The notes beneath the pieces were generated by a model, which had not been told where the DNA came from, searched no databases, and worked only from the letters and a program-made list of their open reading frames with translations. 64,000 bases of DNA, taken from Escherichia coli (GTDB taxonomy: Bacteria > Pseudomonadota > Gammaproteobacteria > Enterobacterales > Enterobacteriaceae). The translations under genes were made by a program, and so were the position numbers. This document shows, piece after piece, positions 3,687-15,621 of the stretch. The stretch is from the NCBI RefSeq assembly GCF_003334305.1, contig NZ_QOWS01000014.1; one strand, 5' to 3'. Within the stretch, counting starts at the first letter, position 1; every line of letters begins with the position of its first letter.

Positions 3687-5359
3687 TGGCTGCGCAAGGG
3701 TTCTTACTGATCGCCACGTTTTTACTGGTGTTAATGGTGCTGGCGCGTCCTTTAGGCAGCGGGCTGGCGCGGCTGATTAATGACATTCCTCTTCCCGGTA
3801 CAACGGGCGTTGAGCGCGTACTTTTTCGCGCACTTGGCGTCTCTGACCGTGAGATGAACTGGAAGCAATATCTTTGTGCCATTCTCGGCCTGAACATGCT
3901 GGGGCTGGCGGTGCTGTTTTTTATGTTGCTCGGTCAGCACTATCTGCCGCTTAATCCACAGCAGTTGCCGGGGCTGTCGTGGGATCTGGCGCTGAATACC
4001 GCCGTCAGCTTTGTCACGAATACCAACTGGCAATCTTACAGCGGTGAAACCACGTTGAGCTATTTCAGCCAGATGGCTGGCTTAACGGTGCAAAACTTTC
4101 TTTCTGCCGCCAGCGGGATTGCGGTGATTTTTGCCCTCATCCGTGCGTTTACCCGCCAGAGCATGAGCACACTCGGGAATGCCTGGGTCGATCTGCTACG
4201 CATCACGTTATGGGTGCTCGTCCCTGTGGCGTTGTTGATCGCACTGTTTTTTATTCAACAAGGTGCGCTGCAAAACTTTCAGCCTTATCAGGCTGTGAAT
4301 ACCGTTGAAGGAGCGCAACAGCTGTTACCCATGGGGCCTGTAGCTTCTCAGGAAGCGATCAAGATGCTCGGTACTAACGGCGGTGGCTTCTTTAATGCCA
4401 ACTCGTCGCATCCGTTTGAAAACCCAACCGCACTGACCAACTTCGTGCAGATGCTGGCGATCTTCTTGATCCCAACGGCGCTGTGCTTTGCCTTTGGTGA
4501 AGTGACGGGCGATCGCCGCCAGGGGCGCATGTTGCTGTGGGCGATGTCAGTGATTTTTGTCATCTGCGTAGGCGTGGTGATGTGGGCAGAAGTTCAGGGT
4601 AATCCTCATCTGCTGGCGCTCGGCGCAGACAGCAGCATCAATATGGAAGGTAAAGAGAGCCGTTTCGGCGTGCTGGTCAGTAGCCTGTTTGCGGTCGTGA
4701 CTACGGCGGCTTCCTGTGGCGCGGTGATTGCGATGCATGATTCGTTTACCGCTCTCGGTGGCATGGTGCCGATGTGGCTGATGCAAATTGGTGAAGTGGT
4801 GTTCGGCGGTGTCGGTTCTGGTCTTTACGGCATGATGCTGTTTGTCCTGCTGGCGGTGTTTATTGCCGGGCTGATGATTGGTCGTACACCGGAATATCTG
4901 GGTAAAAAAATCGACGTACGCGAGATGAAACTGACTGCACTGGCGATTCTGGTTACCCCGACGCTGGTGCTGATGGGCGCGGCGCTGGCAATGATGACCG
5001 ACGCCGGACGTAGCGCCATGCTCAACCCTGGCCCGCATGGTTTTAGCGAAGTGCTGTACGCCGTGTCATCCGCCGCTAACAACAACGGCAGCGCCTTTGC
5101 CGGATTAAGCGCCAACTCCCCGTTCTGGAACTGTTTACTGGCGTTCTGCATGTTTGTCGGTCGCTTCGGGGTGATTATCCCGGTGATGGCAATTGCCGGT
5201 TCGCTGGTGAGTAAAAAGAGCCAACCCGCCAGCTCCGGCACGCTGCCAACGCACGGCCCGCTGTTTGTTGGCCTGTTAATCGGCACCGTGTTGCTGGTTG
5301 GCGCACTGACCTTTATCCCTGCCCTGGCGCTTGGTCCGGTGGCGGAATATCTCTCCTGA
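3686..5359 (+). CDS. kdpA: K+-transporting ATPase subunit KdpA, 557 aa
   Basis: Internal ATG of ORF 3542..5359 gives [24 protein letters not shown]..., the KdpA N-terminus; ATG overlaps the kdpF TGA (ATGA-type coupling). Confidence 0.95.
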
Positions 5360-5381
5360 TGATATTGAGTGAGCACTGAAT

Positions 5382-7438: not shown

Positions 7439-8011
7439 ATGCGTGGCTTACGTCCGGCATTATCGACATTTATCTTTCTGTTATTGATTACTGGCGGCGT
7501 TTACCCGCTGCTGACCACCGTGCTGGGGCAATGGTGGTTTCCCTGGCAGGCCAACGGTTCGTTGATTCGTGAAGGTGATACGGTGCGGGGTTCGGCATTA
7601 ATCGGGCAGAATTTTACCGGCAACGGCTATTTTCAGGGTCGCCCGTCGGCAACGGCAGAAATGCCCTATAATCCACAGGCTTCTGGCGGGAGCAATCTGG
7701 CGGTCAGTAACCCTGAGCTGGATAAACAAATAGCCGCACGCGTTGCTGCATTACGGGCCGCTAACCCGGATGCCAGTACGAACGTTCCGGTTGAACTGGT
7801 GACGGCATCGGCAAGCGGGCTGGACAATAATATCACCCCGCAAGCGGCGGTCTGGCAAATCCCACGCGTGGCGAAAGCGCGTAATCTCAGCGTTGAACAG
7901 CTCACGCAACTGATCGCAAAATACAGCCAACAACCGCTGGTGAAATATATCGGCCAGCCGGTCGTCAACATTGTTGAACTCAATCTGGCGCTGGATAAAC
8001 TTGATGAATAA
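7439..8011 (+). CDS. kdpC: K+-transporting ATPase subunit KdpC, 190 aa
   Basis: Internal ATG at 7439 (GAGG upstream) gives [40 protein letters not shown]; the upstream part of ORF 7415..8011 overlaps the kdpB 3' end and is not coding. Confidence 0.93.
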
Positions 8012-10688
8012 CGAACCCTTACGTCCCGACCCCGATCGTCTGCTGGAACAAACTGCCGCGCCGCATCGGGGGAAGCTGAAAGTTTTCTTCGGTGCCTGTG
8101 CAGGCGTCGGGAAGACCTGGGCGATGCTGGCAGAAGCCCAGCGACTGCGGGCGCAAGGGCTGGATATTGTGGTTGGCGTGGTAGAAACCCATGGGCGGAA
8201 AGATACCGCCGCCATGCTTGAAGGGCTGGCTGTTCTGCCGCCCAAACGCCAGGCGTACCGTGGGCGGCATATCAGCGAGTTTGATCTCGATGCCGCCCTC
8301 GCCCGCCGTCCGGCGCTGATCTTAATGGACGAACTGGCGCACAGTAATGCGCCAGGTTCTCGTCATCCTAAACGCTGGCAGGATATCGAAGAACTGCTGG
8401 AAGCTGGCATTGATGTTTTCACAACCGTCAACGTTCAGCATCTGGAAAGTCTGAATGATGTGGTCAGCGGCGTCACCGGAATTCAGGTACGGGAAACCGT
8501 GCCCGATCCTTTTTTCGATGCCGCCGACGACGTAGTGCTGGTGGACTTGCCCCCGGACGATCTGCGCCAGCGGCTGAAAGAAGGCAAAGTCTATATTGCC
8601 GGGCAGGCGGAGCGCGCCATTGAACATTTTTTCCGCAAAGGCAATCTGATCGCCCTGCGTGAACTGGCACTGCGCCGTACTGCCGATCGCGTAGATGAGC
8701 AAATGCGCGCCTGGCGGGGGCATCCTGGTGAAGAGAAAGTGTGGCACACGCGCGACGCGATCCTTTTATGCATCGGGCATAACACCGGCAGTGAGAAACT
8801 GGTCCGCGCGGCGGCGCGGTTGGCCTCGCGCCTGGGTAGCGTCTGGCACGCGGTGTATGTTGAAACCCCTGCCCTGCATCGCTTACCGGAAAAAAAACGT
8901 CGGGCAATTCTCAGCGCCTTACGTCTGGCGCAGGAGCTGGGCGCGGAGACGGCTACACTTTCTGATCCAGCGGAAGAAAAAGCAGTAGTGCGTTATGCCC
9001 GTGAACATAATCTCGGCAAGATTATTCTCGGTCGCCCGGCCTCGCGCCGCTGGTGGCGTCGGGAAACGTTTGCTGACCGACTGGCGCGCATCGCCCCCGA
9101 TCTCGATCAGGTGCTGGTCGCGCTTGATGAACCACCCGCCCGCACGATTAACAACGCGCCGGATAGCCGCTCTTTTAAAGACAAGTGGCGGGTACAGATT
9201 CAGGGATGCGTGGTTGCCGCCGCGTTATGCGCCGTTATCACTTTAATTGCCATGCAGTGGCTGATGGCGTTTGATGCCGCCAACCTGGTGATGCTGTATC
9301 TGCTTGGCGTGGTGGTGGTGGCGCTATTTTATGGACGCTGGCCTTCGGTGGTTGCTACCGTCATTAATGTGGTGAGTTTCGATCTCTTTTTTATCGCCCC
9401 ACGCGGCACGCTCGCTGTCTCTGATGTGCAATATCTGCTGACCTTCGCGGTGATGTTAACCGTCGGGCTGGTGATCGGGAACCTTACTGCGGGTGTGCGT
9501 TATCAGGCGCGGGTAGCCCGTTACCGCGAGCAACGCACACGGCACTTATATGAAATGTCGAAAGCTCTGGCGGTGGGCCGCAGTCCGCAGGACATCGCCG
9601 CCACCAGCGAACAATTTATTGCCTCCACGTTTCATGCCCGCAGTCAGGTGTTGTTGCCCGATGACAACGGTAAATTGCAGCCGTTAACACATCCGCAAGG
9701 AATGACCCCGTGGGACGATGCCATCGCACAGTGGAGTTTTGATAAAGGCCTGCCTGCGGGTGCGGGCACCGACACGTTACCCGGTGTACCGTACCAGATT
9801 TTGCCGTTAAAAAGCGGTGAGAAAACCTACGGGCTGGTGGTGGTGGAACCAGGGAATCTGCGTCAGTTGATGATCCCGGAACAGCAGCGCCTGCTGGAGA
9901 CGTTTACGCTGTTAGTCGCCAATGCGTTTGAGCGGCTTACGCTGACCGCCAGTGAAGAACAGGCGCGGATGGCAAGCGAACGGGAACAGATCCGCAACGC
10001 TCTGCTGGCGGCGCTTTCGCATGATTTACGCACGCCGCTCACGGTGCTGTTCGGTCAGGCAGAAATCTTAACGCTCGATCTGGCAAGCGAAGGATCGCCT
10101 CACGCCCGCCAGGCCAGCGAGATTCGTCAGCACGTGCTGAACACTACCCGACTGGTGAATAATCTACTGGATATGGCGCGAATTCAGTCCGGCGGCTTTA
10201 ATTTGAAGAAAGAGTGGTTAACGCTGGAAGAAGTGGTCGGCAGCGCGCTGCAAATGCTGGAACCGGGTTTATCGTCGCCCATCAATCTTTCTCTGCCAGA
10301 ACCGCTGACCTTAATCCACGTTGACGGGCCACTCTTTGAACGGGTGCTGATTAATCTGCTGGAGAACGCGGTGAAATATGCGGGTGCGCAGGCCGAAATT
10401 GGTATCGATGCCCACGTTGAGGGCGAAAATCTACAACTGGATGTCTGGGATAACGGCCCCGGTCTTCCGCCAGGCCAGGAGCAGACGATATTTGATAAGT
10501 TTGCTCGCGGGAATAAAGAGTCGGCAGTACCGGGGGTAGGGCTTGGACTGGCAATTTGTCGGGCGATAGTGGATGTACACGGGGGCACTATTACCGCGTT
10601 CAACCGACCGGAAGGTGGTGCCTGTTTTCGTGTTACACTTCCCCAGCAAACTGCCCCTGAACTTGAAGAATTTCATGAGGATATGTGA
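8004..10688 (+). CDS. kdpD: Sensor histidine kinase KdpD, 894 aa
   Basis: ATG at 8004 gives [45 protein letters not shown] (P-loop); C-terminal HisKA/HATPase motifs ([23 protein letters not shown]). Start overlaps the kdpC stop. Confidence 0.96.
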
Positions 10689-11362
10689 CAAACGTTCTGA
10701 TTGTTGAAGATGAACAGGCTATTCGTCGCTTTCTGCGCACGGCGCTGGAGGGCGACGGGATGCGCGTCTATGAGGCCGAAACGCTGCAACGCGGCTTGCT
10801 GGAAGCGGCTACCCGTAAGCCAGATTTGATTATTCTCGATCTCGGCCTGCCCGATGGTGATGGGATTGAGTTTATCCGCGACCTGCGCCAGTGGAGCGCG
10901 GTGCCGGTGATTGTGCTTTCCGCACGCAGCGAAGAGAGCGACAAAATCGCCGCGCTGGATGCCGGAGCGGATGATTATCTGAGTAAGCCGTTTGGCATTG
11001 GCGAATTGCAGGCCCGTCTGCGCGTCGCTTTACGCCGCCACTCCGCCACCGCCGCGCCCGATCCGCTGGTGAAATTTTCCGATGTTACCGTCGATTTAGC
11101 CGCCCGCGTGATTCACCGGGGTGAGGAAGAGGTGCATCTCACGCCGATTGAGTTCCGCCTGCTGGCGGTGCTGCTGAATAATGCCGGGAAAGTGCTCACC
11201 CAGCGCCAGTTACTCAATCAGGTGTGGGGGCCAAACGCGGTCGAACACAGTCACTATTTGCGTATTTATATGGGACATCTGCGACAAAAACTGGAACAGG
11301 ATCCCGCTCGCCCCCGCCATTTCATTACTGAAACCGGTATTGGGTATCGGTTTATGCCATGA
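10685..11362 (+). CDS. kdpE: Response regulator KdpE (OmpR family), 225 aa
   Basis: ORF-track protein [32 protein letters not shown]...; receiver Asp in LIILDLGLPDGDG; winged-helix C-terminus; 4-bp overlap with kdpD. Confidence 0.96.
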   Translation: MTNVLIVEDEQAIRRFLRTALEGDGMRVYEAETLQRGLLEAATRKPDLIILDLGLPDGDGIEFIRDLRQWSAVPVIVLSARSEESDKIAALDAGADDYLSKPFGIGELQARLRVALRRHSATAAPDPLVKFSDVTVDLAARVIHRGEEEVHLTPIEFRLLAVLLNNAGKVLTQRQLLNQVWGPNAVEHSHYLRIYMGHLRQKLEQDPARPRHFITETGIGYRFMP

Positions 11363-11636
11363 ATGTTTATTCAATAAATGCGCTTAAATAATTATTAATT
11401 TATTATTAAACCTGCCAAAAATATTATTATTTGGCAGGTTTAATTTCTTAACGCAAATATAAAACACAAAATTACAACATTTAAATAACAAAACAGCATC
11501 TAATATGGCGCTATTCATAATTAATGATTTATTATTTGGGGTATGATCGTTTTTTGTTGATCTTCTTCACAGATTATAGCCATTTCATGGATAGAATAAC
11601 TCTACCTTCAACTGACACAGCAAGAGGTAAAGGTAA

Positions 11637-11741
11637 ATGGAAAATAATAACCGCTTAATGCCTCATATAAGGCGGACAACCCATATCATGAAGTTTGCCC
11701 ATCGTAATAGTTTTGACTTTCATTTCTTTAATGCCCGCTAG
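11637..11741 (+). CDS. speFL: speF leader arrest peptide SpeFL, 34 aa
   Basis: ATG 11637 to TAG 11739..11741 translates MENNNRLMPHIRRTTHIMKFAHRNSFDFHFFNAR, which I recognise as the ornithine-sensing leader peptide; 300 bp upstream of speF. Below the ORF-track size cutoff. Confidence 0.8.
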   Translation: MENNNRLMPHIRRTTHIMKFAHRNSFDFHFFNAR

Positions 11742-12051
11742 TCTTCTGACTAAAGGGCACCCCAACGTACAGGTCTCCCTGACTTTAAGCATTACAGGTT
11801 AATACCTGTATTCCTCGGTGCTCATATACTGCTAACCCTTTTAAACTCTAAATAATTCGAGTCGCAGCACTTGCAACTTGAGGTATGACGAGTATAGCCA
11901 GTTACCGGGCTGGTCTGGGTTATTGCATCTGCAAAAAGCAAACTACTGATTTATTTATCAGCGGTGGAGCTTTGCTTTTTTTCCGGCGTGATCGATTTCT
12001 CCTTTGAGAAATTGAGGACCTGCTATTACCTGAAATAAAGAGATGAACAAA

Positions 12052-14250
12052 ATGTCAGAATTAAAAATTGCCGTTAGTCGTTCTTGCCCTGATTGTTTTT
12101 CCACTCATCGTGCATGCGTGAATATAGACGAAAGTAATTATATTGACGTTGCCGCCATTATTTTATCAGTCAGTGATGTTGAACGTGGAAAACTCGATGA
12201 AATAGACGCTACTGGCTATGACATTCCTGTTTTTATTGCAACGGAAAATGAAGAACGTGTACCCGCAGAATATCTGCCACGTATTTCTGGTGTCTTCGAA
12301 CATTGCGAATCACGTAAAGAGTTTTATGGACGTCAGTTAGAAACCGCTGCCAGCCATTATGAAACGCAACTGCGCCCGCCCTTCTTCCGCGCACTGGTCG
12401 ATTATGTTAATCAGGGCAATAGTGCTTTTGACTGCCCTGGTCATCAGGGGGGTGAGTTTTTCCGTCGCCATCCGGCAGGCAATCAGTTCGTGGAATACTT
12501 TGGCGAAATGCTCTTCCGCTCTGACTTGTGTAATGCTGACGTAGCAATGGGCGATCTGCTGATTCATGAAGGTGCGCCATGTATTGCACAACAGCATGCG
12601 GCTAAAGTCTTTAATGCCGATAAAACCTATTTCGTTTTAAACGGTACTTCATCTTCTAATAAAGTGGTCTTAAACGCATTGCTGACGCCGGGCGATCTGG
12701 TGTTGTTTGACCGCAATAACCATAAATCTAACCACCACGGTGCGTTGCTACAGGCTGGCGCGACACCGGTTTATCTGGAAACCGCACGTAACCCGTATGG
12801 TTTTATCGGTGGTATTGACGCTCACTGTTTTGAAGAAAGTTACCTGCGTGAGCTGATTACAGAAGTTGCACCGCAGCGGGCAAAAGAGGCTCGTCCTTTC
12901 CGCCTCGCCGTTATTCAGCTAGGCACTTACGACGGTACGATTTATAACGCCCGTCAGGTGGTGGATAAAATTGGTCATCTGTGTGACTACATTCTGTTTG
13001 ACTCCGCATGGGTTGGCTATGAGCAATTTATCCCGATGATGGCTGACTGTTCGCCGCTGTTGCTGGATCTTAATGAGAACGATCCGGGTATTCTGGTTAC
13101 GCAATCCGTACATAAACAGCAGGCTGGTTTTTCTCAAACTTCACAAATCCATAAAAAAGACAGCCACATCAAAGGGCAACAGCGTTATGTACCGCACAAA
13201 CGCATGAACAACGCCTTTATGATGCACGCCTCCACCAGCCCGTTCTATCCGCTGTTTGCCGCACTGGATATCAACGCCAAAATGCATGAAGGTGTCAGCG
13301 GTCGTAATATGTGGATGGATTGTGTGGTAAATGGCATTAATGCCCGCAAACTGATCCTCGATAACTGTCAGCATATTCGTCCGTTCGTACCTGAACTGGT
13401 GGATGGTAAACCCTGGCAGTCGTATGAAACAGCGCAAATTGCGGTTGATCTGCGCTTCTTCCAGTTTGTACCAGGGGAACACTGGCATTCTTTTGAAGGC
13501 TATGCAGAGAATCAATACTTTGTCGATCCTTGCAAACTGTTGCTGACAACCCCAGGTATTGATGCACGTAACGGCGAATATGAAGCGTTCGGTGTACCCG
13601 CGACGATTCTTGCTAACTTCCTGCGCGAAAATGGCGTAGTGCCGGAAAAATGCGATCTTAACTCCATCCTCTTCCTGCTGACTCCGGCAGAAGATATGGC
13701 CAAGCTTCAGCAACTTGTTGCCCTGCTGGTACGCTTCGAAAAACTGCTTGAGTCCGACGCGCCATTAGCAGAAGTGCTGCCTTCCATCTACAAACAGCAT
13801 GAAGAGCGCTACGCCGGTTATACCCTGCGTCAGTTGTGTCAAGAAATGCATGATTTGTATGCCCGTCACAACGTGAAACAACTGCAAAAAGAGATGTTCC
13901 GTAAGGAACACTTCCCACGCGTAAGCATGAATCCGCAAGAAGCCAACTACGCCTATTTACGCGGTGAAGTGGAGCTGGTTCGTCTGCCGGATGCAGAAGG
14001 CCGTATCGCTGCCGAAGGTGCGCTTCCTTATCCTCCGGGTGTGCTGTGCGTTGTTCCGGGTGAAATCTGGGGTGGTGCTGTTCTGCGTTACTTCAGCGCT
14101 CTGGAAGAAGGGATCAACCTGTTGCCAGGTTTTGCACCGGAGCTTCAGGGTGTCTATATCGAAGAACATGATGGTCGTAAGCAAGTTTGGTGCTATGTCA
14201 TCAAGCCTCGTGATGCGCAAAGTACCCTGTTGAAAGGGGAAAAATTATGA
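12052..14250 (+). CDS. speF: Inducible ornithine decarboxylase SpeF, 732 aa
   Basis: Protein (MSELKIAVSRSCPDCFST...) is a fold-III PLP decarboxylase with the ornithine decarboxylase body; start chosen at the second ATG (12052) to match the K-12 length, with an in-frame ATG at 12043 as alternative. Confidence 0.93.
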   Translation: MSELKIAVSRSCPDCFSTHRACVNIDESNYIDVAAIILSVSDVERGKLDEIDATGYDIPVFIATENEERVPAEYLPRISGVFEHCESRKEFYGRQLETAASHYETQLRPPFFRALVDYVNQGNSAFDCPGHQGGEFFRRHPAGNQFVEYFGEMLFRSDLCNADVAMGDLLIHEGAPCIAQQHAAKVFNADKTYFVLNGTSSSNKVVLNALLTPGDLVLFDRNNHKSNHHGALLQAGATPVYLETARNPYGFIGGIDAHCFEESYLRELITEVAPQRAKEARPFRLAVIQLGTYDGTIYNARQVVDKIGHLCDYILFDSAWVGYEQFIPMMADCSPLLLDLNENDPGILVTQSVHKQQAGFSQTSQIHKKDSHIKGQQRYVPHKRMNNAFMMHASTSPFYPLFAALDINAKMHEGVSGRNMWMDCVVNGINARKLILDNCQHIRPFVPELVDGKPWQSYETAQIAVDLRFFQFVPGEHWHSFEGYAENQYFVDPCKLLLTTPGIDARNGEYEAFGVPATILANFLRENGVVPEKCDLNSILFLLTPAEDMAKLQQLVALLVRFEKLLESDAPLAEVLPSIYKQHEERYAGYTLRQLCQEMHDLYARHNVKQLQKEMFRKEHFPRVSMNPQEANYAYLRGEVELVRLPDAEGRIAAEGALPYPPGVLCVVPGEIWGGAVLRYFSALEEGINLLPGFAPELQGVYIEEHDGRKQVWCYVIKPRDAQSTLLKGEKL

Positions 14251-15566
14251 GTCAGGCTAAATCGAACAAAATGGGCGTCGTTCAGTTAACCATACTGACG
14301 ATGGTCAACATGATGGGCTCCGGTATCATCATGCTGCCGACAAAGCTTGCCGAAGTTGGGACAATTTCAATTATCTCCTGGCTGGTGACAGCCGTAGGCT
14401 CAATGGCACTGGCATGGGCATTCGCAAAATGCGGTATGTTCAGCCGTAAATCAGGTGGTATGGGCGGTTATGCCGAGTATGCTTTCGGTAAGTCCGGCAA
14501 TTTTATGGCGAACTACACCTACGGTGTCTCGCTGCTGATTGCTAACGTCGCGATTGCTATTTCGGCGGTTGGTTACGGCACCGAACTGCTCGGCGCGAGT
14601 TTGTCGCCAGTGCAGATTGGTCTTGCGACCATCGGAGTGCTGTGGATTTGTACCGTGGCTAACTTTGGTGGTGCGCGCATTACCGGGCAAATCAGTAGCA
14701 TTACTGTGTGGGGGGTCATTATTCCGGTGGTAGGCCTGTGCATTATCGGCTGGTTCTGGTTTAGCCCGACGCTTTACGTTGATTCCTGGAATCCGCATCA
14801 TGCACCGTTCTTCAGTGCAGTAGGTTCTTCCATCGCTATGACGCTGTGGGCTTTTCTCGGTCTGGAGTCTGCGTGTGCGAATACTGATGTAGTGGAAAAC
14901 CCGGAACGTAATGTGCCAATCGCGGTACTCGGCGGTACGTTAGGTGCGGCGGTGATTTATATCGTCTCCACCAACGTGATTGCAGGGATTGTGCCTAATA
15001 TGGAGCTGGCAAATTCAACGGCACCATTTGGCCTGGCCTTCGCACAGATGTTCACACCAGAAGTGGGTAAAGTCATTATGGCGCTGATGGTGATGTCCTG
15101 CTGCGGTTCGCTGCTTGGCTGGCAGTTCACCATTGCCCAGGTGTTTAAATCTTCATCTGATGAAGGCTACTTCCCTAAAATTTTCTCCCGTGTAACCAAA
15201 GTGGATGCACCGGTGCAGGGAATGTTGACCATTGTGATTATCCAGAGCGGGTTGGCGCTGATGACGATTAGCCCGTCGCTAAACAGTCAGTTCAACGTGC
15301 TGGTTAACCTGGCCGTGGTGACCAATATCATTCCGTATATTCTGTCAATGGCGGCATTAGTCATTATTCAGAAGGTCGCTAATGTGCCCCCCTCAAAAGC
15401 GAAAGTTGCAAACTTTGTTGCTTTTGTTGGCGCGATGTATAGCTTTTATGCGCTGTACTCATCCGGGGAAGAAGCCATGCTGTACGGTTCCATCGTGACC
15501 TTCCTTGGTTGGACACTGTATGGTCTGGTATCACCACGCTTTGAACTGAAAAATAAACACGGTTAA
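14247..15566 (+). CDS. potE: Putrescine-ornithine antiporter PotE, 439 aa
   Basis: ORF-track protein MSQAKSNKMGVVQLTILTMVNMMGSGIIMLPTKLAEVG... (APC-family transporter); 4-bp overlap with speF. Confidence 0.96.
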   Translation: MSQAKSNKMGVVQLTILTMVNMMGSGIIMLPTKLAEVGTISIISWLVTAVGSMALAWAFAKCGMFSRKSGGMGGYAEYAFGKSGNFMANYTYGVSLLIANVAIAISAVGYGTELLGASLSPVQIGLATIGVLWICTVANFGGARITGQISSITVWGVIIPVVGLCIIGWFWFSPTLYVDSWNPHHAPFFSAVGSSIAMTLWAFLGLESACANTDVVENPERNVPIAVLGGTLGAAVIYIVSTNVIAGIVPNMELANSTAPFGLAFAQMFTPEVGKVIMALMVMSCCGSLLGWQFTIAQVFKSSSDEGYFPKIFSRVTKVDAPVQGMLTIVIIQSGLALMTISPSLNSQFNVLVNLAVVTNIIPYILSMAALVIIQKVANVPPSKAKVANFVAFVGAMYSFYALYSSGEEAMLYGSIVTFLGWTLYGLVSPRFELKNKHG

Positions 15567-15577
15567 AAAAGCAAAGT

Positions 15578-15610
15578 AAAAAAGGGCGATCTTGCGACCG
15601 CCCTTTTTTT
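15578..15610. terminator. Bidirectional intrinsic terminator between convergent potE and pgm
   Basis: AAAAAAGGGCGATCTTGCGACCGCCCTTTTTTT: GC-rich stem with an A-tract on one side and a T-tract on the other, in the 55-bp gap between the two stop codons. Confidence 0.75.
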
Positions 15611-15621
15611 ATTAAATGTGT

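What the first reader, a model, noticed from the sequence alone, without database searches (positions are those of the whole stretch)
11363..12051. speF leader with intact SpeFL arrest peptide and a structured region upstream of speF
Seen: a 34-codon ORF (MENNNRLMPHIRRTTHIMKFAHRNSFDFHFFNAR) sits 300 bp upstream of speF. The downstream leader contains an imperfect hairpin with a T7 tract (AGCAAA...GCTTTGCTTTTTTT, about 11935..11985). Established: SpeFL stalls ribosomes in response to ornithine, preventing premature Rho-dependent termination. The conserved C-terminal HIRRxxH...FHFF block is intact here.
Basis: partly seen in the sequence, partly recalled or inferred. Interest (0 to 1): 0.35.

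Follow-up and report, generated by a model that had tools for sequence, protein, structure and literature searches.

The report
Known speFL leader carrying a mini-ERIC
This is the already-described E. coli speFL-speF leader (an ornithine-sensing arrest peptide plus a structured 5' UTR) and so is ordinary; the one unremarked detail is that this common allele carries a 55-nt remnant of an ERIC repeat that the studied K-12 leader lacks.

Summary
A 34-codon ORF at 11637-11741 (+), ending in TAG, encodes MENNNRLMPHIRRTTHIMKFAHRNSFDFHFFNAR. It lies 310 nt upstream of speF (ATG at 12052). It matches the SpeFL chain of PDB 6TBV/6TC3 at 32 of 34 residues, and RefSeq already annotates it as speFL in 100%-identical E. 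coli chromosomes. The two differences, S5N and T7L, are the commonest states among 71 homologues. All mutationally tested residues are intact, as are the rare ATA-AGG-CGG codons, the stop-codon hairpin, the pause consensus, the C-rich tract and the helix that sequesters the speF SD.

It looks like a structural stem of the leader's "ring" region, not an intrinsic terminator.

That element is present in 3327 of 5426 complete E. coli genomes. It sits within a ~1.8-kb block that is 63-93% identical to K-12. In silico it folds as an independent stem-loop and leaves every other predicted pair unchanged.

Verdict: already known, low interest.

The parts
11405..11444 (+). Perfect 15-bp hairpin after kdpE (AAACCUGCCAAA...UUUGGCAGGUUU). 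It is probably the kdp operon terminator. It marks the 5' boundary of the speF control region and is replaced by a different hairpin in K-12.
   Evidence: Fold energy -18.9 kcal/mol, z = -5.6. The alignment with K-12 shows this segment is haplotype-specific. The terminator role is inferred.
11592..11606 (+). Inferred -10 box TAGAAT (11592-11597) and transcription start near 11606.
   Evidence: Inference only. The Salmonella TSS lies 31 nt upstream of the orf34 AUG (PMC6386406). The GGATAGAATA block is conserved between the two E. coli haplotypes. The consensus promoter scan called nothing on the + strand.
11622..11627 (+). speFL Shine-Dalgarno sequence, AAGAGG, 9 nt before the ATG.
   Evidence: Read directly from the sequence.
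11637..11741 (+). speFL, encoding the 34-aa ornithine-sensing arrest peptide. The stop codon is TAG. The rare codons are I11 ATA (11667-11669), R12 AGG (11670-11672) and R13 CGG (11673-11675).
   Evidence: RefSeq annotation in 100%-identical genomes.
11711..11730 (+). CU-rich 3' part of speFL. It is the 5' strand of the long-range helix that sequesters the speF SD, and it is the proposed Rho/anti-SD site.
   Evidence: 19 long-range pairs with mean probability 0.89. The published equivalent was tested by compensatory mutagenesis in Salmonella (PMC6386406).
11732..11759 (+). Hairpin enclosing the UAG stop codon. This is the RNA polymerase pause hairpin of the published model.
   Evidence: Local fold: UGCCC/GGGCA plus UAGUC/GACUA. 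Model from 10.1101/604074.
11756..11767 (+). Match to the pause consensus G-11 G-10 ... Y-1 G+1: GG at 11756-11757, C at 11766, G at 11767. [quoted passage not shown]
   Evidence: Sequence check. Consensus from 10.1101/604074, Supplementary Fig. 4 legend. Salmonella terminates about 21 nt after the stop.
11727..11846 (+). C-rich, G-poor tract with C/G ratio 1.7-2.1. Its composition is rut-like, and it overlaps the end of speFL.
   Evidence: Composition in 60-nt windows. Rho binding is inferred from the literature.
11793..11810 (+). Hairpin UACAGGU-UAAU-ACCUGUA. Its loop is the site where other genera carry a full-length ERIC.
11842..11896 (+). Internally deleted ERIC/IRU (RU-1) element: consensus positions 1-21 joined to 94-127. 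It forms its own stem-loop. It is absent from K-12.
   Evidence: 52 of 55 identical to the consensus termini (consensus from PMC2759123). Dispersed in all 5426 E. coli genomes, median 4 places. At this site in 3327 of 5426 genomes. Hairpin energy -15.1 kcal/mol.
11897..11914 (+). Small hairpin GCCAGUU-ACCG-GGCUGGU.
   Evidence: Whole-leader MFE. The ACCGGnC core is nearly invariant in 42 species.
11933..11982 (+). Outer A-run/U-run stem 11933-11942 with 11971-11980. Inner stem 11946-11950 with 11957-11961. T7 run 11976-11982.
11993..12014 (+). Conserved 9-bp hairpin UCGAUUUCU...AGAAAUUGA between the T7 hairpin and the speF RBS.
   Evidence: RNAalifold consensus. 5 of 9 pairs show compensatory changes and 96.8% of cells are paired.
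12036..12060 (+). speF RBS region and 3' strand of the closing helix. It includes the SD AAGAG (12038-12042) and the speF ATG (12052-12054).
   Evidence: SD nucleotides are paired to the speFL ORF with P about 1.0.
12052..14250 (+). speF, the inducible ornithine decarboxylase and the regulated gene. potE follows at 14247-15566.
   Evidence: 97% identical to K-12 SpeF.

Best explanation
The region is the kdpE-speF intergenic region of an E. coli chromosome and contains the known speFL-speF regulatory leader. Transcription is inferred to start about 30 nt before speFL. When ornithine is scarce, the ribosome finishes the 34-codon speFL and is released at UAG. This leaves the C-rich RNA at and after the 3' end of speFL free. 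Rho loads there and terminates at the pause site just past the stop-codon hairpin, around 11766. Any full-length RNA keeps the speF Shine-Dalgarno sequence paired to the CU-rich end of speFL. When ornithine is abundant, it is trapped between 23S rRNA and the HIRRxxH loop of nascent SpeFL. The Phe-rich C-terminal part then compacts and blocks RF1 at the UAG. The stalled ribosome, with others queued behind it, covers the Rho site and opens the SD-sequestering helix, so speF-potE is transcribed and translated. The rare ATA-AGG-CGG codons slow the ribosomes that follow. The T7 hairpin is one of the conserved stem-loops inside the 'ring' closed by the long helix, next to the segment whose deletion stabilises the Salmonella mRNA against RNase G. 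It is not the terminator. This allele also carries a 55-nt ERIC remnant that folds as an extra self-contained stem-loop in the ring. Shown here: sequence identity, conservation, predicted structures and covariation. Inferred from published work on K-12 and Salmonella: ornithine stalling, Rho dependence and RNase G decay.
For: Identity: the region is 100% identical to many E. coli chromosomes where the ORF is annotated 'leader peptide SpeFL'. It matches PDB 6TBV/6TC3 SpeFL at 32 of 34 residues, E = 1.7e-18, and K-12 SpeFL except for S5N and T7L. Peptide features: among 71 gap-free homologues from 74 SpeFL-bearing loci, M1 E2 N3 N4 H10 I11 R12 R13 H16 M18 R23 F26 F28 are invariant and all are present here. 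N5 occurs in 57 of 71 and L7 in 21 of 71, the commonest states at those positions. The codons are ATA, AGG and CGG and the stop is TAG. RNA features: a stop-codon hairpin at 11732-11759; the pause consensus at 11756-11767 and a C/G ratio of 1.7-2.1 over 11727-11846; and a long-range helix 11711-11730 with 12036-12060, mean pair probability 0.89, with the SD paired at P about 1. The whole-leader fold has z = -3.6. T7 hairpin and neighbouring hairpin: 93.7% of cells are paired, against 44-58% in slid controls. 11 pairs show compensatory changes, against 2-4 in controls, and 0 of 500 shuffles reach the observed values. Mechanism sources: 10.1101/604074 and PMC6386406.
Against: No experiment was done on this allele. 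All E. coli functional and structural work used the K-12 sequence. That sequence differs at residues 5 and 7, which lie within the N-terminal hairpin whose deletion (residues 1-7) abolishes stalling. It also differs by about 15% across the leader and by the ERIC insertion. NCBIfam has no HMM that recognises the peptide, so family assignment rests on pairwise identity and RefSeq naming. The two strands of the closing helix are almost invariant across species, so covariation cannot confirm it. K-12 Term-seq tables list no 3' end in this leader. The TSS and promoter are inferred by homology only, and the promoter scan found nothing on the + strand.
Confidence: 0.9

Rival explanations
1. The T7 hairpin (11933-11982) is a Rho-independent terminator or attenuator. 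It would stop transcription inside the leader and provide a second termination checkpoint before speF.
For: A hairpin immediately followed by seven U residues. The U-run followed by CCGG is present in about 40 of 42 Enterobacteriaceae leaders.
Against: The stem next to the U-run is A/U-rich with a large interior. The core without A-run/U-run pairing folds at only -8.7 kcal/mol. The terminator scan did not call it on the + strand. The U-run is itself the 3' arm of the stem. In Pluralibacter L022 the U-run became UAUUC and the A-run changed to GAAUA, preserving the pairing, and Kosakonia L015 shows the complementary pair GAAUAA/UUAUUC by eye although its MFE did not use it. This indicates selection on the helix, not on a U-tract. 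In Salmonella the only premature product is about 157 nt, ending just after orf34. Bicyclomycin restores read-through, and the authors found no intrinsic terminator in the 5' UTR (PMC6386406).
Confidence: 0.08
2. This allele is a decayed or functionally altered leader. The S5N and T7L changes in the sensor hairpin, or the ERIC insertion, would have abolished ornithine sensing or Rho control, making speF constitutive or silent.
For: Deleting residues 1-7 abolishes stalling in K-12 SpeFL (10.1101/604074), so the N-terminus matters. A 55-nt insertion lies in the region that controls mRNA fate.
Against: N5 and L7 are the majority or plurality states across genera. MENNNRLMPHIRR is the exact N-terminus in Enterobacter, Lelliottia, Kluyvera georgiana and others. 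The allele is present in 61% of complete E. coli genomes, and speF and potE are intact. Removing the ERIC in silico changes no other MFE pair. Other genera tolerate a full 127-nt ERIC in the same leader.
Confidence: 0.03
3. The leader works as in K-12, but the mini-ERIC stem-loop quantitatively changes the output. It could alter RNase E/G access, mRNA half-life or the Rho translocation path, so the two E. coli haplotypes are regulatory variants.
For: ERIC copies within Yersinia transcripts change the stability of flanking mRNA in an orientation-dependent, RNase E-linked manner (De Gregorio et al. 2005, as summarised in PMC2229807). The insertion lies within the part of the leader that corresponds to the RNase G-sensitive ring of Salmonella. 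The two haplotypes also differ by 20-37% in the promoter region.
Against: In silico the element is structurally neutral. There are no expression data. Repeated insertions at two sites in several genera may simply reflect tolerance of the ring to insertions.
Confidence: 0.2

Closest known systems
E. coli K-12 SpeFL / speFL-speF leader (Herrero del Valle et al. 2020; PDB 6TBV, 6TC3)
   Same: A 34-aa peptide with 32 of 34 residues identical. The HIRRTTH loop, P9, R12/R13, F20/F26/F28/F30/F31 and the UAG stop are all the same. So are the rare AGG-CGG codons, the stop-codon pause hairpin, the position upstream of speF-potE, and the T-tract hairpin and downstream hairpin.
   Different: S5N and T7L. 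The leader is 310 nt rather than 257 nt because of a 55-nt ERIC remnant. The leader is about 15% divergent and the promoter region 20-37% divergent. The first ~600 nt of speF are 83% identical, whereas the 3' half of speF is 98.8% identical.
Salmonella orf34-speF leader (Ben-Zvi et al. 2019)
   Same: The same peptide family. Rho-dependent attenuation just after the ORF. A long helix pairing the ORF's 3' end with the speF RBS and closing a multi-hairpin 'ring'. An AU-rich segment 5' of the T-tract hairpin that corresponds to the RNase G-sensitive segment at nt 388-400.
   Different: The Salmonella spacer is 379 nt. In the arizonae representative (L017) a ~117-nt insertion sits in the loop of the ACAGG/CCUGU hairpin, a different site from the window's insertion. 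That insertion is not significantly ERIC-like (z = 0.7). Arginine/RNase G control has been shown only in Salmonella.
ERIC / IRU / RU-1 enterobacterial repeat (127-bp imperfect palindrome)
   Same: Both termini match the consensus: 21 plus 34 nt, 52 of 55 identical. It is intergenic and co-transcribed, hairpin-forming, and dispersed in every E. coli genome. Full-length copies occupy the same leader in Citrobacter, Kluyvera and Pluralibacter.
   Different: The central 72 nt, which include the ERIC-PCR primer core, are missing. The left terminus reads TAAAC rather than TATAC.
TnaC-tnaCAB leader (tryptophan-sensing arrest peptide with Rho-dependent attenuation)
   Same: The same logic: a small-molecule-dependent block of peptide release at a leader stop codon masks a rut site and prevents Rho termination.
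   Different: An unrelated peptide, ligand and binding site. It is an analogy only and was not tested here.

Membership tests
SpeFL ornithine-sensing arrest peptide | A short ORF of about 34 codons directly upstream of speF on the same strand | tested here: met
   ORF at 11637-11741 (+), 310 nt before speF at 12052.
SpeFL ornithine-sensing arrest peptide | HIRRXXH ornithine-recognition loop at residues 10-16, with P9, R12 and R13 | tested here: met
   The peptide reads P9-H-I-R-R-T-T-H16. H10, I11, R12, R13 and H16 are invariant in 71 homologues. Motif definition from 10.1101/604074.
SpeFL ornithine-sensing arrest peptide | Effector-domain hydrophobic core: F20, F26, F28, F30, F31 | tested here: met
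   All five are Phe in the window. F26 and F28 are invariant, F31 occurs in 68 of 71, F30 in 49 of 71 and F20 in 50 of 71.
SpeFL ornithine-sensing arrest peptide | N-terminal hairpin (residues 1-13) competent for sensing | tested here: inconclusive
   Residues 5 and 7 differ from the solved K-12 peptide. N5 and L7 are the commonest natural states, which argues for function, but no structure or assay exists for this variant.
SpeFL ornithine-sensing arrest peptide | Arrest at the stop codon, UAG, decoded by RF1 | tested here: met
   TAG at 11739-11741. TAG is used by 43 of 71 homologues and TAA by 28.
SpeFL ornithine-sensing arrest peptide | Consecutive rare Arg codons at positions 12 and 13 | tested here: met
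   AGG and CGG at 11670-11675, preceded by the rare ATA.
SpeFL ornithine-sensing arrest peptide | Ornithine-dependent ribosome stalling | not testable with these tools
   This needs toeprinting or a reporter assay. It has been shown only for the K-12 sequence (10.1101/604074).
speF leader Rho-dependent attenuator with RBS-sequestering helix | Pause hairpin containing the leader stop codon, followed by a pause consensus | tested here: met
   Hairpin at 11732-11759. G-11 G-10 ... C-1 G+1 at 11756-11767.
speF leader Rho-dependent attenuator with RBS-sequestering helix | C-rich, G-poor rut region overlapping the 3' end of the leader ORF; Rho dependence | tested here: inconclusive
   The composition fits, with C/G 1.7-2.1 over 11727-11846. 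Rho binding and bicyclomycin sensitivity cannot be tested here.
speF leader Rho-dependent attenuator with RBS-sequestering helix | Long-range helix between the ORF's 3' end and the speF SD | tested here: met
   19 pairs with mean probability 0.89. The SD is paired at P about 1. This is a prediction only, because both strands are too conserved for covariation.
ERIC / IRU / RU-1 repeat | Sequence match to the 127-bp consensus | tested here: met
   The match is partial. Window 11842-11896 aligns to consensus positions 1-21 and 94-127 with 52 of 55 identical, and positions 22-93 are absent. The local alignment score has z = 14.7 against shuffles. I therefore file it as an internally deleted copy, not a full element.
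ERIC / IRU / RU-1 repeat | Multiple dispersed copies per genome | tested here: met
   The 59-nt query hits all 5426 E. coli genomes, with a median of 4 and a maximum of 9 places. An independent copy lies in the yafP-rtcB spacer.
ERIC / IRU / RU-1 repeat | Terminal inverted repeats with TA ends and a target-site duplication | tested here: inconclusive
   The termini are TAAACTC...GAGTATA, against the consensus TATACTC...GAGTATA. The empty K-12 site reads CCCTT|GTATTA, and a clean TA duplication cannot be shown.
Intrinsic (Rho-independent) terminator | G+C-rich stem with a short loop, directly followed by a U-tract | tested here: not met
   The U7 run is present, but the adjoining stem is A/U-rich with a 28-nt interior. 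The core folds at -8.7 kcal/mol. The scan made no call on the + strand.

The most novel reading that the evidence does not exclude
The majority E. coli speF control region is a functionally distinct regulatory allele. It combines a mini-ERIC stem-loop in the RNase-sensitive ring, a strongly diverged promoter and leader, and a diverged SpeF N-terminal domain. On this reading it has been kept alongside the K-12-type allele as an old, possibly trans-species, polymorphism because the two give different ornithine, arginine or acid responses. K-12 would then be an unrepresentative model for speF regulation in most E. coli, including O157:H7 and O104:H4.
Probability: 0.15. Interest if true: 0.45.

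Novelty: already known. Interest (0 to 1): 0.17.

Why it matters
The finding itself adds nothing new. SpeFL is published, solved by cryo-EM and annotated by RefSeq at this exact sequence. The one useful by-product concerns the leader studied in K-12, which is the minority form. About 61% of complete E. coli genomes carry this allele, which has an ERIC remnant in the leader and a much-diverged promoter and leader. Anyone extrapolating speF regulation, or polyamine-linked acid-stress and virulence phenotypes, from K-12 to pathogenic lineages should test this allele. The ERIC presence/absence polymorphism is a ready-made natural experiment for doing so.

Tried and rejected
1. Rfam scan of 10500-13000 at E <= 1. 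The only hit was a sub-threshold match to isrH (17.3 bits against a gathering score of 45). It turned out to be the mini-ERIC, not an sRNA.

2. NCBIfam HMMs. There was no model hit for SpeFL or for the overlapping 44-aa ORF. This is uninformative, not negative evidence.

I used the first 300 aa of SpeF instead.

4. My first divergence script failed on a wrong file path. I re-ran it unchanged in logic.

5. The MAFFT alignment of the short element to the 127-nt ERIC misplaced the left arm. I replaced it with a low-gap-extension local alignment and explicit arm scoring.

6. blastn-short of ERIC against the leaders missed the full-length copies in L010, L012 and L025. Smith-Waterman alignment with shuffles recovered them.

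7. Helix probabilities were partly wrong. String search picked the first occurrence of short motifs, and the K-12 pair register was guessed. I discarded those numbers and recomputed from the pair table.

8. A covariation test of the closing helix was abandoned because both strands are nearly invariant.

9. The K-12 Term-seq supplements contain no leader 3' end, so they cannot decide whether the T7 hairpin terminates.

10. I considered calling the Salmonella insertion at site A an ERIC. I rejected this because the similarity is not significant (z = 0.7).

11. Wilson and Sharp 2006, the catalogue of E. coli ERIC copies, is not held. I cannot say whether the kdpE-speF copy is listed there.

12. 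I considered a Citrobacter origin for the K-12-type block, because the K-12 SpeFL N-terminus is Citrobacter-like. I rejected it because that block is only 77% identical to Citrobacter but 83-84% identical to other Escherichia.
Full report
**1. Observation**

The window around the finding is an E. coli chromosome segment: kdpD (7971-10688), kdpE (10685-11362), an AT-rich spacer, speF (12052-14250) and potE (14247-15566), with pgm on the opposite strand.

The 34-codon ORF is at 11637-11741 (+). The stop codon ends 310 nt before the speF ATG at 12052. That is the start RefSeq uses in identical genomes, and it lies 9 nt after the SD AAGAG (12038-12042).

The hairpin with a T-run is present. The A-rich arm is at 11933-11942, the inner stem CTGAT/ATCAG at 11946-11950 with 11957-11961, and the U-rich arm at 11971-11980. 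The T7 run is at 11976-11982, followed by CCGG.

**2. Identity**

The whole 689-nt interval is 100% identical to many E. coli chromosomes, including O104:H4 2009EL-2050. There the ORF is already annotated 'speFL: leader peptide SpeFL'.

Against the Protein Data Bank, the peptide matches only the SpeFL chain of 6TBV/6TC3, at 32 of 34 residues with E = 1.7e-18. The K-12 peptide is MENNSRTMPHIRRTTHIMKFAHRNSFDFHFFNAR, so the window differs only by S5N and T7L.

NCBIfam has no HMM that recognises the peptide. That test says nothing either way.

**3. Is the variant peptide likely functional?**

I retrieved 80 speF loci from one genome per species across the Enterobacterales. A SpeFL-like ORF was upstream of 74 of them.

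- Among 71 gap-free 34-aa homologues, M1 E2 N3 N4 H10 I11 R12 R13 H16 M18 R23 F26 F28 are invariant. All of them are present in the window.
- N5 occurs in 57 of 71. Position 7 is the most variable in the peptide, and L is its commonest residue (21 of 71).
- The exact N-terminus MENNNRLMPHIRR is the form found in Enterobacter, Lelliottia, Kluyvera georgiana and others.
- The residues that Herrero del Valle et al. showed to be required are all intact: H10, I11, R12, R13, H16, F26, F28, F30 and F31. So are P9 and F20, which contribute to the ligand pocket and the hydrophobic core (10.1101/604074).
- The rare codons ATA-AGG-CGG at positions 11-13 are intact, and so is the UAG stop.

**4. RNA features of the published mechanism**

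The literature describes three layers of control.

- Ornithine-dependent arrest at the stop codon blocks RF1 and masks a rut site that overlaps speFL. [quoted passage not shown]
- In Salmonella, Rho terminates about 21 nt after the orf34 stop, giving a 157-nt product from a TSS 31 nt upstream of the AUG (PMC6386406).
- A long helix pairs orf34 nucleotides with the speF RBS and closes a 'ring-like' structure that RNase G attacks when arginine is high.

The window has the corresponding elements.

- A hairpin at 11732-11759 encloses the UAG.
- The pause consensus G-11 G-10 ... C-1 G+1 lies at 11756-11767.
- A C-rich, G-poor tract with C/G 1.7-2.1 spans 11727-11846.
- 19 long-range pairs join speFL nt 75-94 (11711-11730) to 12036-12060, with mean probability 0.89. 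The SD is paired to the speFL ORF at P about 1.
- The whole leader folds at -118.2 kcal/mol, z = -3.6 against shuffles.

Both strands of the closing helix are almost invariant across species. Covariation therefore cannot add support. The support is the prediction here plus the published compensatory mutagenesis in Salmonella.

**5. The T7 hairpin**

I aligned the last 150 nt of the leader from 42 Enterobacteriaceae. The inner stem CUGAU/AUCAG is invariant, and the A-run, the U-run and the following CCGG are nearly so.

I counted pairs for an explicit structure made of the outer stem, the inner stem and the next hairpin (11993-12001 with 12006-12014). 93.7% of cells were paired, against 44-58% when partners were slid. 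11 pairs showed changes on both sides, against 2-4 in the slid controls. None of 500 shuffles reached the observed values.

The downstream hairpin carries most of the covariation: 5 of its 9 pairs have compensatory changes. The outer stem is kept mainly by sequence conservation, with some informative exceptions.

- Salmonella uses AAAGCUA/UAGCUUU.
- Kluyvera uses GUGA/UUAC.
- In Pluralibacter L022 the U-run has become UAUUC and the A-run GAAUA.
- Kosakonia L015 shows the complementary GAAUAA/UUAUUC by eye, although its MFE chose another pairing.

The U-run therefore appears to be conserved because it pairs with the A-run.

As a terminator the hairpin is poor. Its core folds at -8.7 kcal/mol without A-run/U-run pairing. 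The stem next to the U-run is A/U-rich, and the terminator scan made no call. The Salmonella authors found no intrinsic terminator in the 5' UTR and saw only the 157-nt Rho-dependent product.

I mapped Salmonella numbering onto the arizonae locus L017. The deletion of nt 388-400, which stabilises the mRNA, and the strong RNase G site at A392 fall on UUACAUCUAAAAU. That corresponds to window ~11923-11936, immediately 5' of the hairpin's A-rich arm and overlapping its start. This mapping is approximate because L017 is not Typhimurium.

The K-12 Term-seq tables list no 3' end in this leader, so they do not decide the question.

**6.

Only 3352 of 5426 complete E. coli genomes match this leader by megablast. 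The K-12 leader matches a separate set of 1709.

Aligned to K-12, the window has 310 rather than 257 nt between speFL and speF, because of an extra block. A 59-nt query covering that block hits every E. coli genome, with a median of 4 places. One of those places is the yafP-rtcB spacer.

I compared the block with the ERIC/RU-1 consensus printed in Delihas 2007 (PMC2759123). Window 11842-11896 aligns to consensus positions 1-21 and 94-127 with 52 of 55 identical (z = 14.7). It is therefore an ERIC copy with the central 72 nt deleted.

A query spanning both junctions finds the element at this site in 3327 of 5426 genomes, including O157:H7. No feature is annotated there.

The element folds on its own at -15.1 kcal/mol. 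Deleting it in silico leaves every other pair of the leader's MFE unchanged, and the closing-helix probabilities stay the same.

E. albertii (L007) and the L006 record (titled E. coli strain E69) carry degenerate copies at the same position.

Independently, unambiguous full-length ERIC copies (positions 1-127, z = 29-61) sit at another site in Citrobacter (L010, L012), Kluyvera (L025, L083) and Pluralibacter (L028). That site is the loop of the UACAGG/CCUGUA hairpin, which corresponds to window 11800-11803. Salmonella arizonae has a 117-nt hairpin-forming insertion at that same site, but it is not significantly ERIC-like (z = 0.7).

Neither speFL paper mentions repeats. A literature search linking ERIC to speF found nothing relevant. 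The Wilson and Sharp catalogue is not held.

ERIC copies inside Yersinia transcripts are reported to affect mRNA stability through RNase E, depending on orientation (PMC2229807). A quantitative regulatory effect here is therefore conceivable but untested.

**7. The haplotype block**

Identity to K-12 is 95-100% in kdpD, in kdpE and in speF beyond ~13100. Between ~11300 and ~13100 it falls to 63-93%. Most SpeF amino-acid differences lie in the first ~160 residues.

- In speF nt 1-600 the window is 90% identical to E. albertii but only 83% to K-12.
- In the same segment K-12 is 83-84% identical to the other Escherichia and 77% to Citrobacter.
- In speF nt 1150-2190 the window and K-12 are 98.8% identical, and both are ~87% identical to E. 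albertii.

The control region and the 5' end of speF are thus an old mosaic polymorphism. I did not pursue its origin further.

**8. Verdict**

Both the observation and the interpretation hold. The element is the known speFL-speF leader, so its novelty is 'already known' and its interest is low.

The T-tract hairpin is a genuine conserved structure, but it is most likely a structural stem of the ring and not a termination site.

The only point beyond the literature I could read is this. The common E. coli allele carries a mini-ERIC and a strongly diverged promoter and leader compared with the K-12 allele used in all the E. coli experiments.

Noticed in passing
window 11300-13100: A block of about 1.8 kb covers the kdpE 3' end, the promoter, the leader and the first ~1 kb of speF. 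It is 63-93% identical to K-12, while the flanks are 95-100% identical. In speF nt 1-600 the window allele is closer to E. albertii (90%) than to K-12 (83%). The K-12-type block is about equally distant from all Escherichia sampled. The two haplotypes occur in roughly 61% and 31% of complete E. coli genomes.
   Followed up: partly
L010 and L012 (leader nt 59-184), L025 and L083 (leader nt 38-164), L028 (leader nt 48-173); the equivalent site is window 11800-11803: Full-length 127-nt ERIC copies are inserted in the loop of the UACAGG/CCUGUA hairpin of the speF leader in Citrobacter, Kluyvera and Pluralibacter. This is a second, independent ERIC insertion site in the same leader. Salmonella arizonae (L017) has a 117-nt hairpin-forming insert there that is not detectably ERIC.
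   Followed up: partly
window 11840-11896: The only Rfam hit is sub-threshold: isrH, 17.3 bits, E = 0.057. It falls on the mini-ERIC. The printed isrH model consensus at positions 159-216 itself reads like joined ERIC termini (uauaCCCAAAAUAAU...CAACUUGAAGuauGA.GGGuaua). This suggests that the Salmonella sRNA family includes a short ERIC.
   Followed up: no
window 11524-11658 (+): RefSeq/PGAP annotates a 44-aa 'hypothetical protein' (WP_001299172.1) here in identical genomes. It overlaps the inferred speF promoter and TSS and the first 22 nt of speFL. It has no NCBIfam match and lies in the most diverged part of the spacer, so it is probably a spurious call.
   Followed up: partly
window 11405-11444: A perfect 15-bp hairpin (-18.9 kcal/mol, z = -5.6) follows kdpE. 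It is probably the kdp operon terminator. K-12 lacks this segment and has a different hairpin (AAAGCCGUA...UACGGCUUU) at the equivalent place.
   Followed up: partly
window 15567-15621: potE is followed almost directly by pgm on the opposite strand. The ~1.7 kb that K-12 has here, carrying ybfP and the pseudogenes ybfG and ybfI, is absent.
   Followed up: no
L002 (NZ_CM173443.1) 4001-5365: Some E. coli genomes lack speFL-speF-potE altogether. In this lab stock an IS1A sits just after the kdpE spacer and the operon is missing. About 365 of 5426 genomes match neither leader haplotype.
   Followed up: no
L006-L084, SpeFL ORFs: The SpeFL stop codon is TAG in 43 of 71 homologues and TAA in 28, including Kluyvera, Hafnia, Serratia and Yersinia. 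TAA is read by both RF1 and RF2, whereas the published arrest mechanism describes a block of RF1.
   Followed up: no
L053, L055, L057, L061, L062, L085: Six speF-like loci, 67-75% identical over the N-terminal 300 aa, have no HIRRxxH ORF within 1.3 kb upstream. They may be paralogues or may be regulated differently.
   Followed up: no
L011 (JAIJJM010000551.1): A 2.2-kb contig binned as a Collinsella MAG carries a K-12-type E. coli speFL-speF sequence. This is probably contamination or misbinning.
   Followed up: no
window 11842-11896 compared with L006 and L007 at the same site: The window's mini-ERIC is 95% identical to the ERIC consensus. The positionally homologous copies in E. albertii and in L006 (titled E. 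coli strain E69) are far more degenerate, roughly 60-65% identical to the window's copy by eye. This is odd for a single old insertion. It could reflect gene conversion between ERIC copies or re-insertion at the same site.
   Followed up: no
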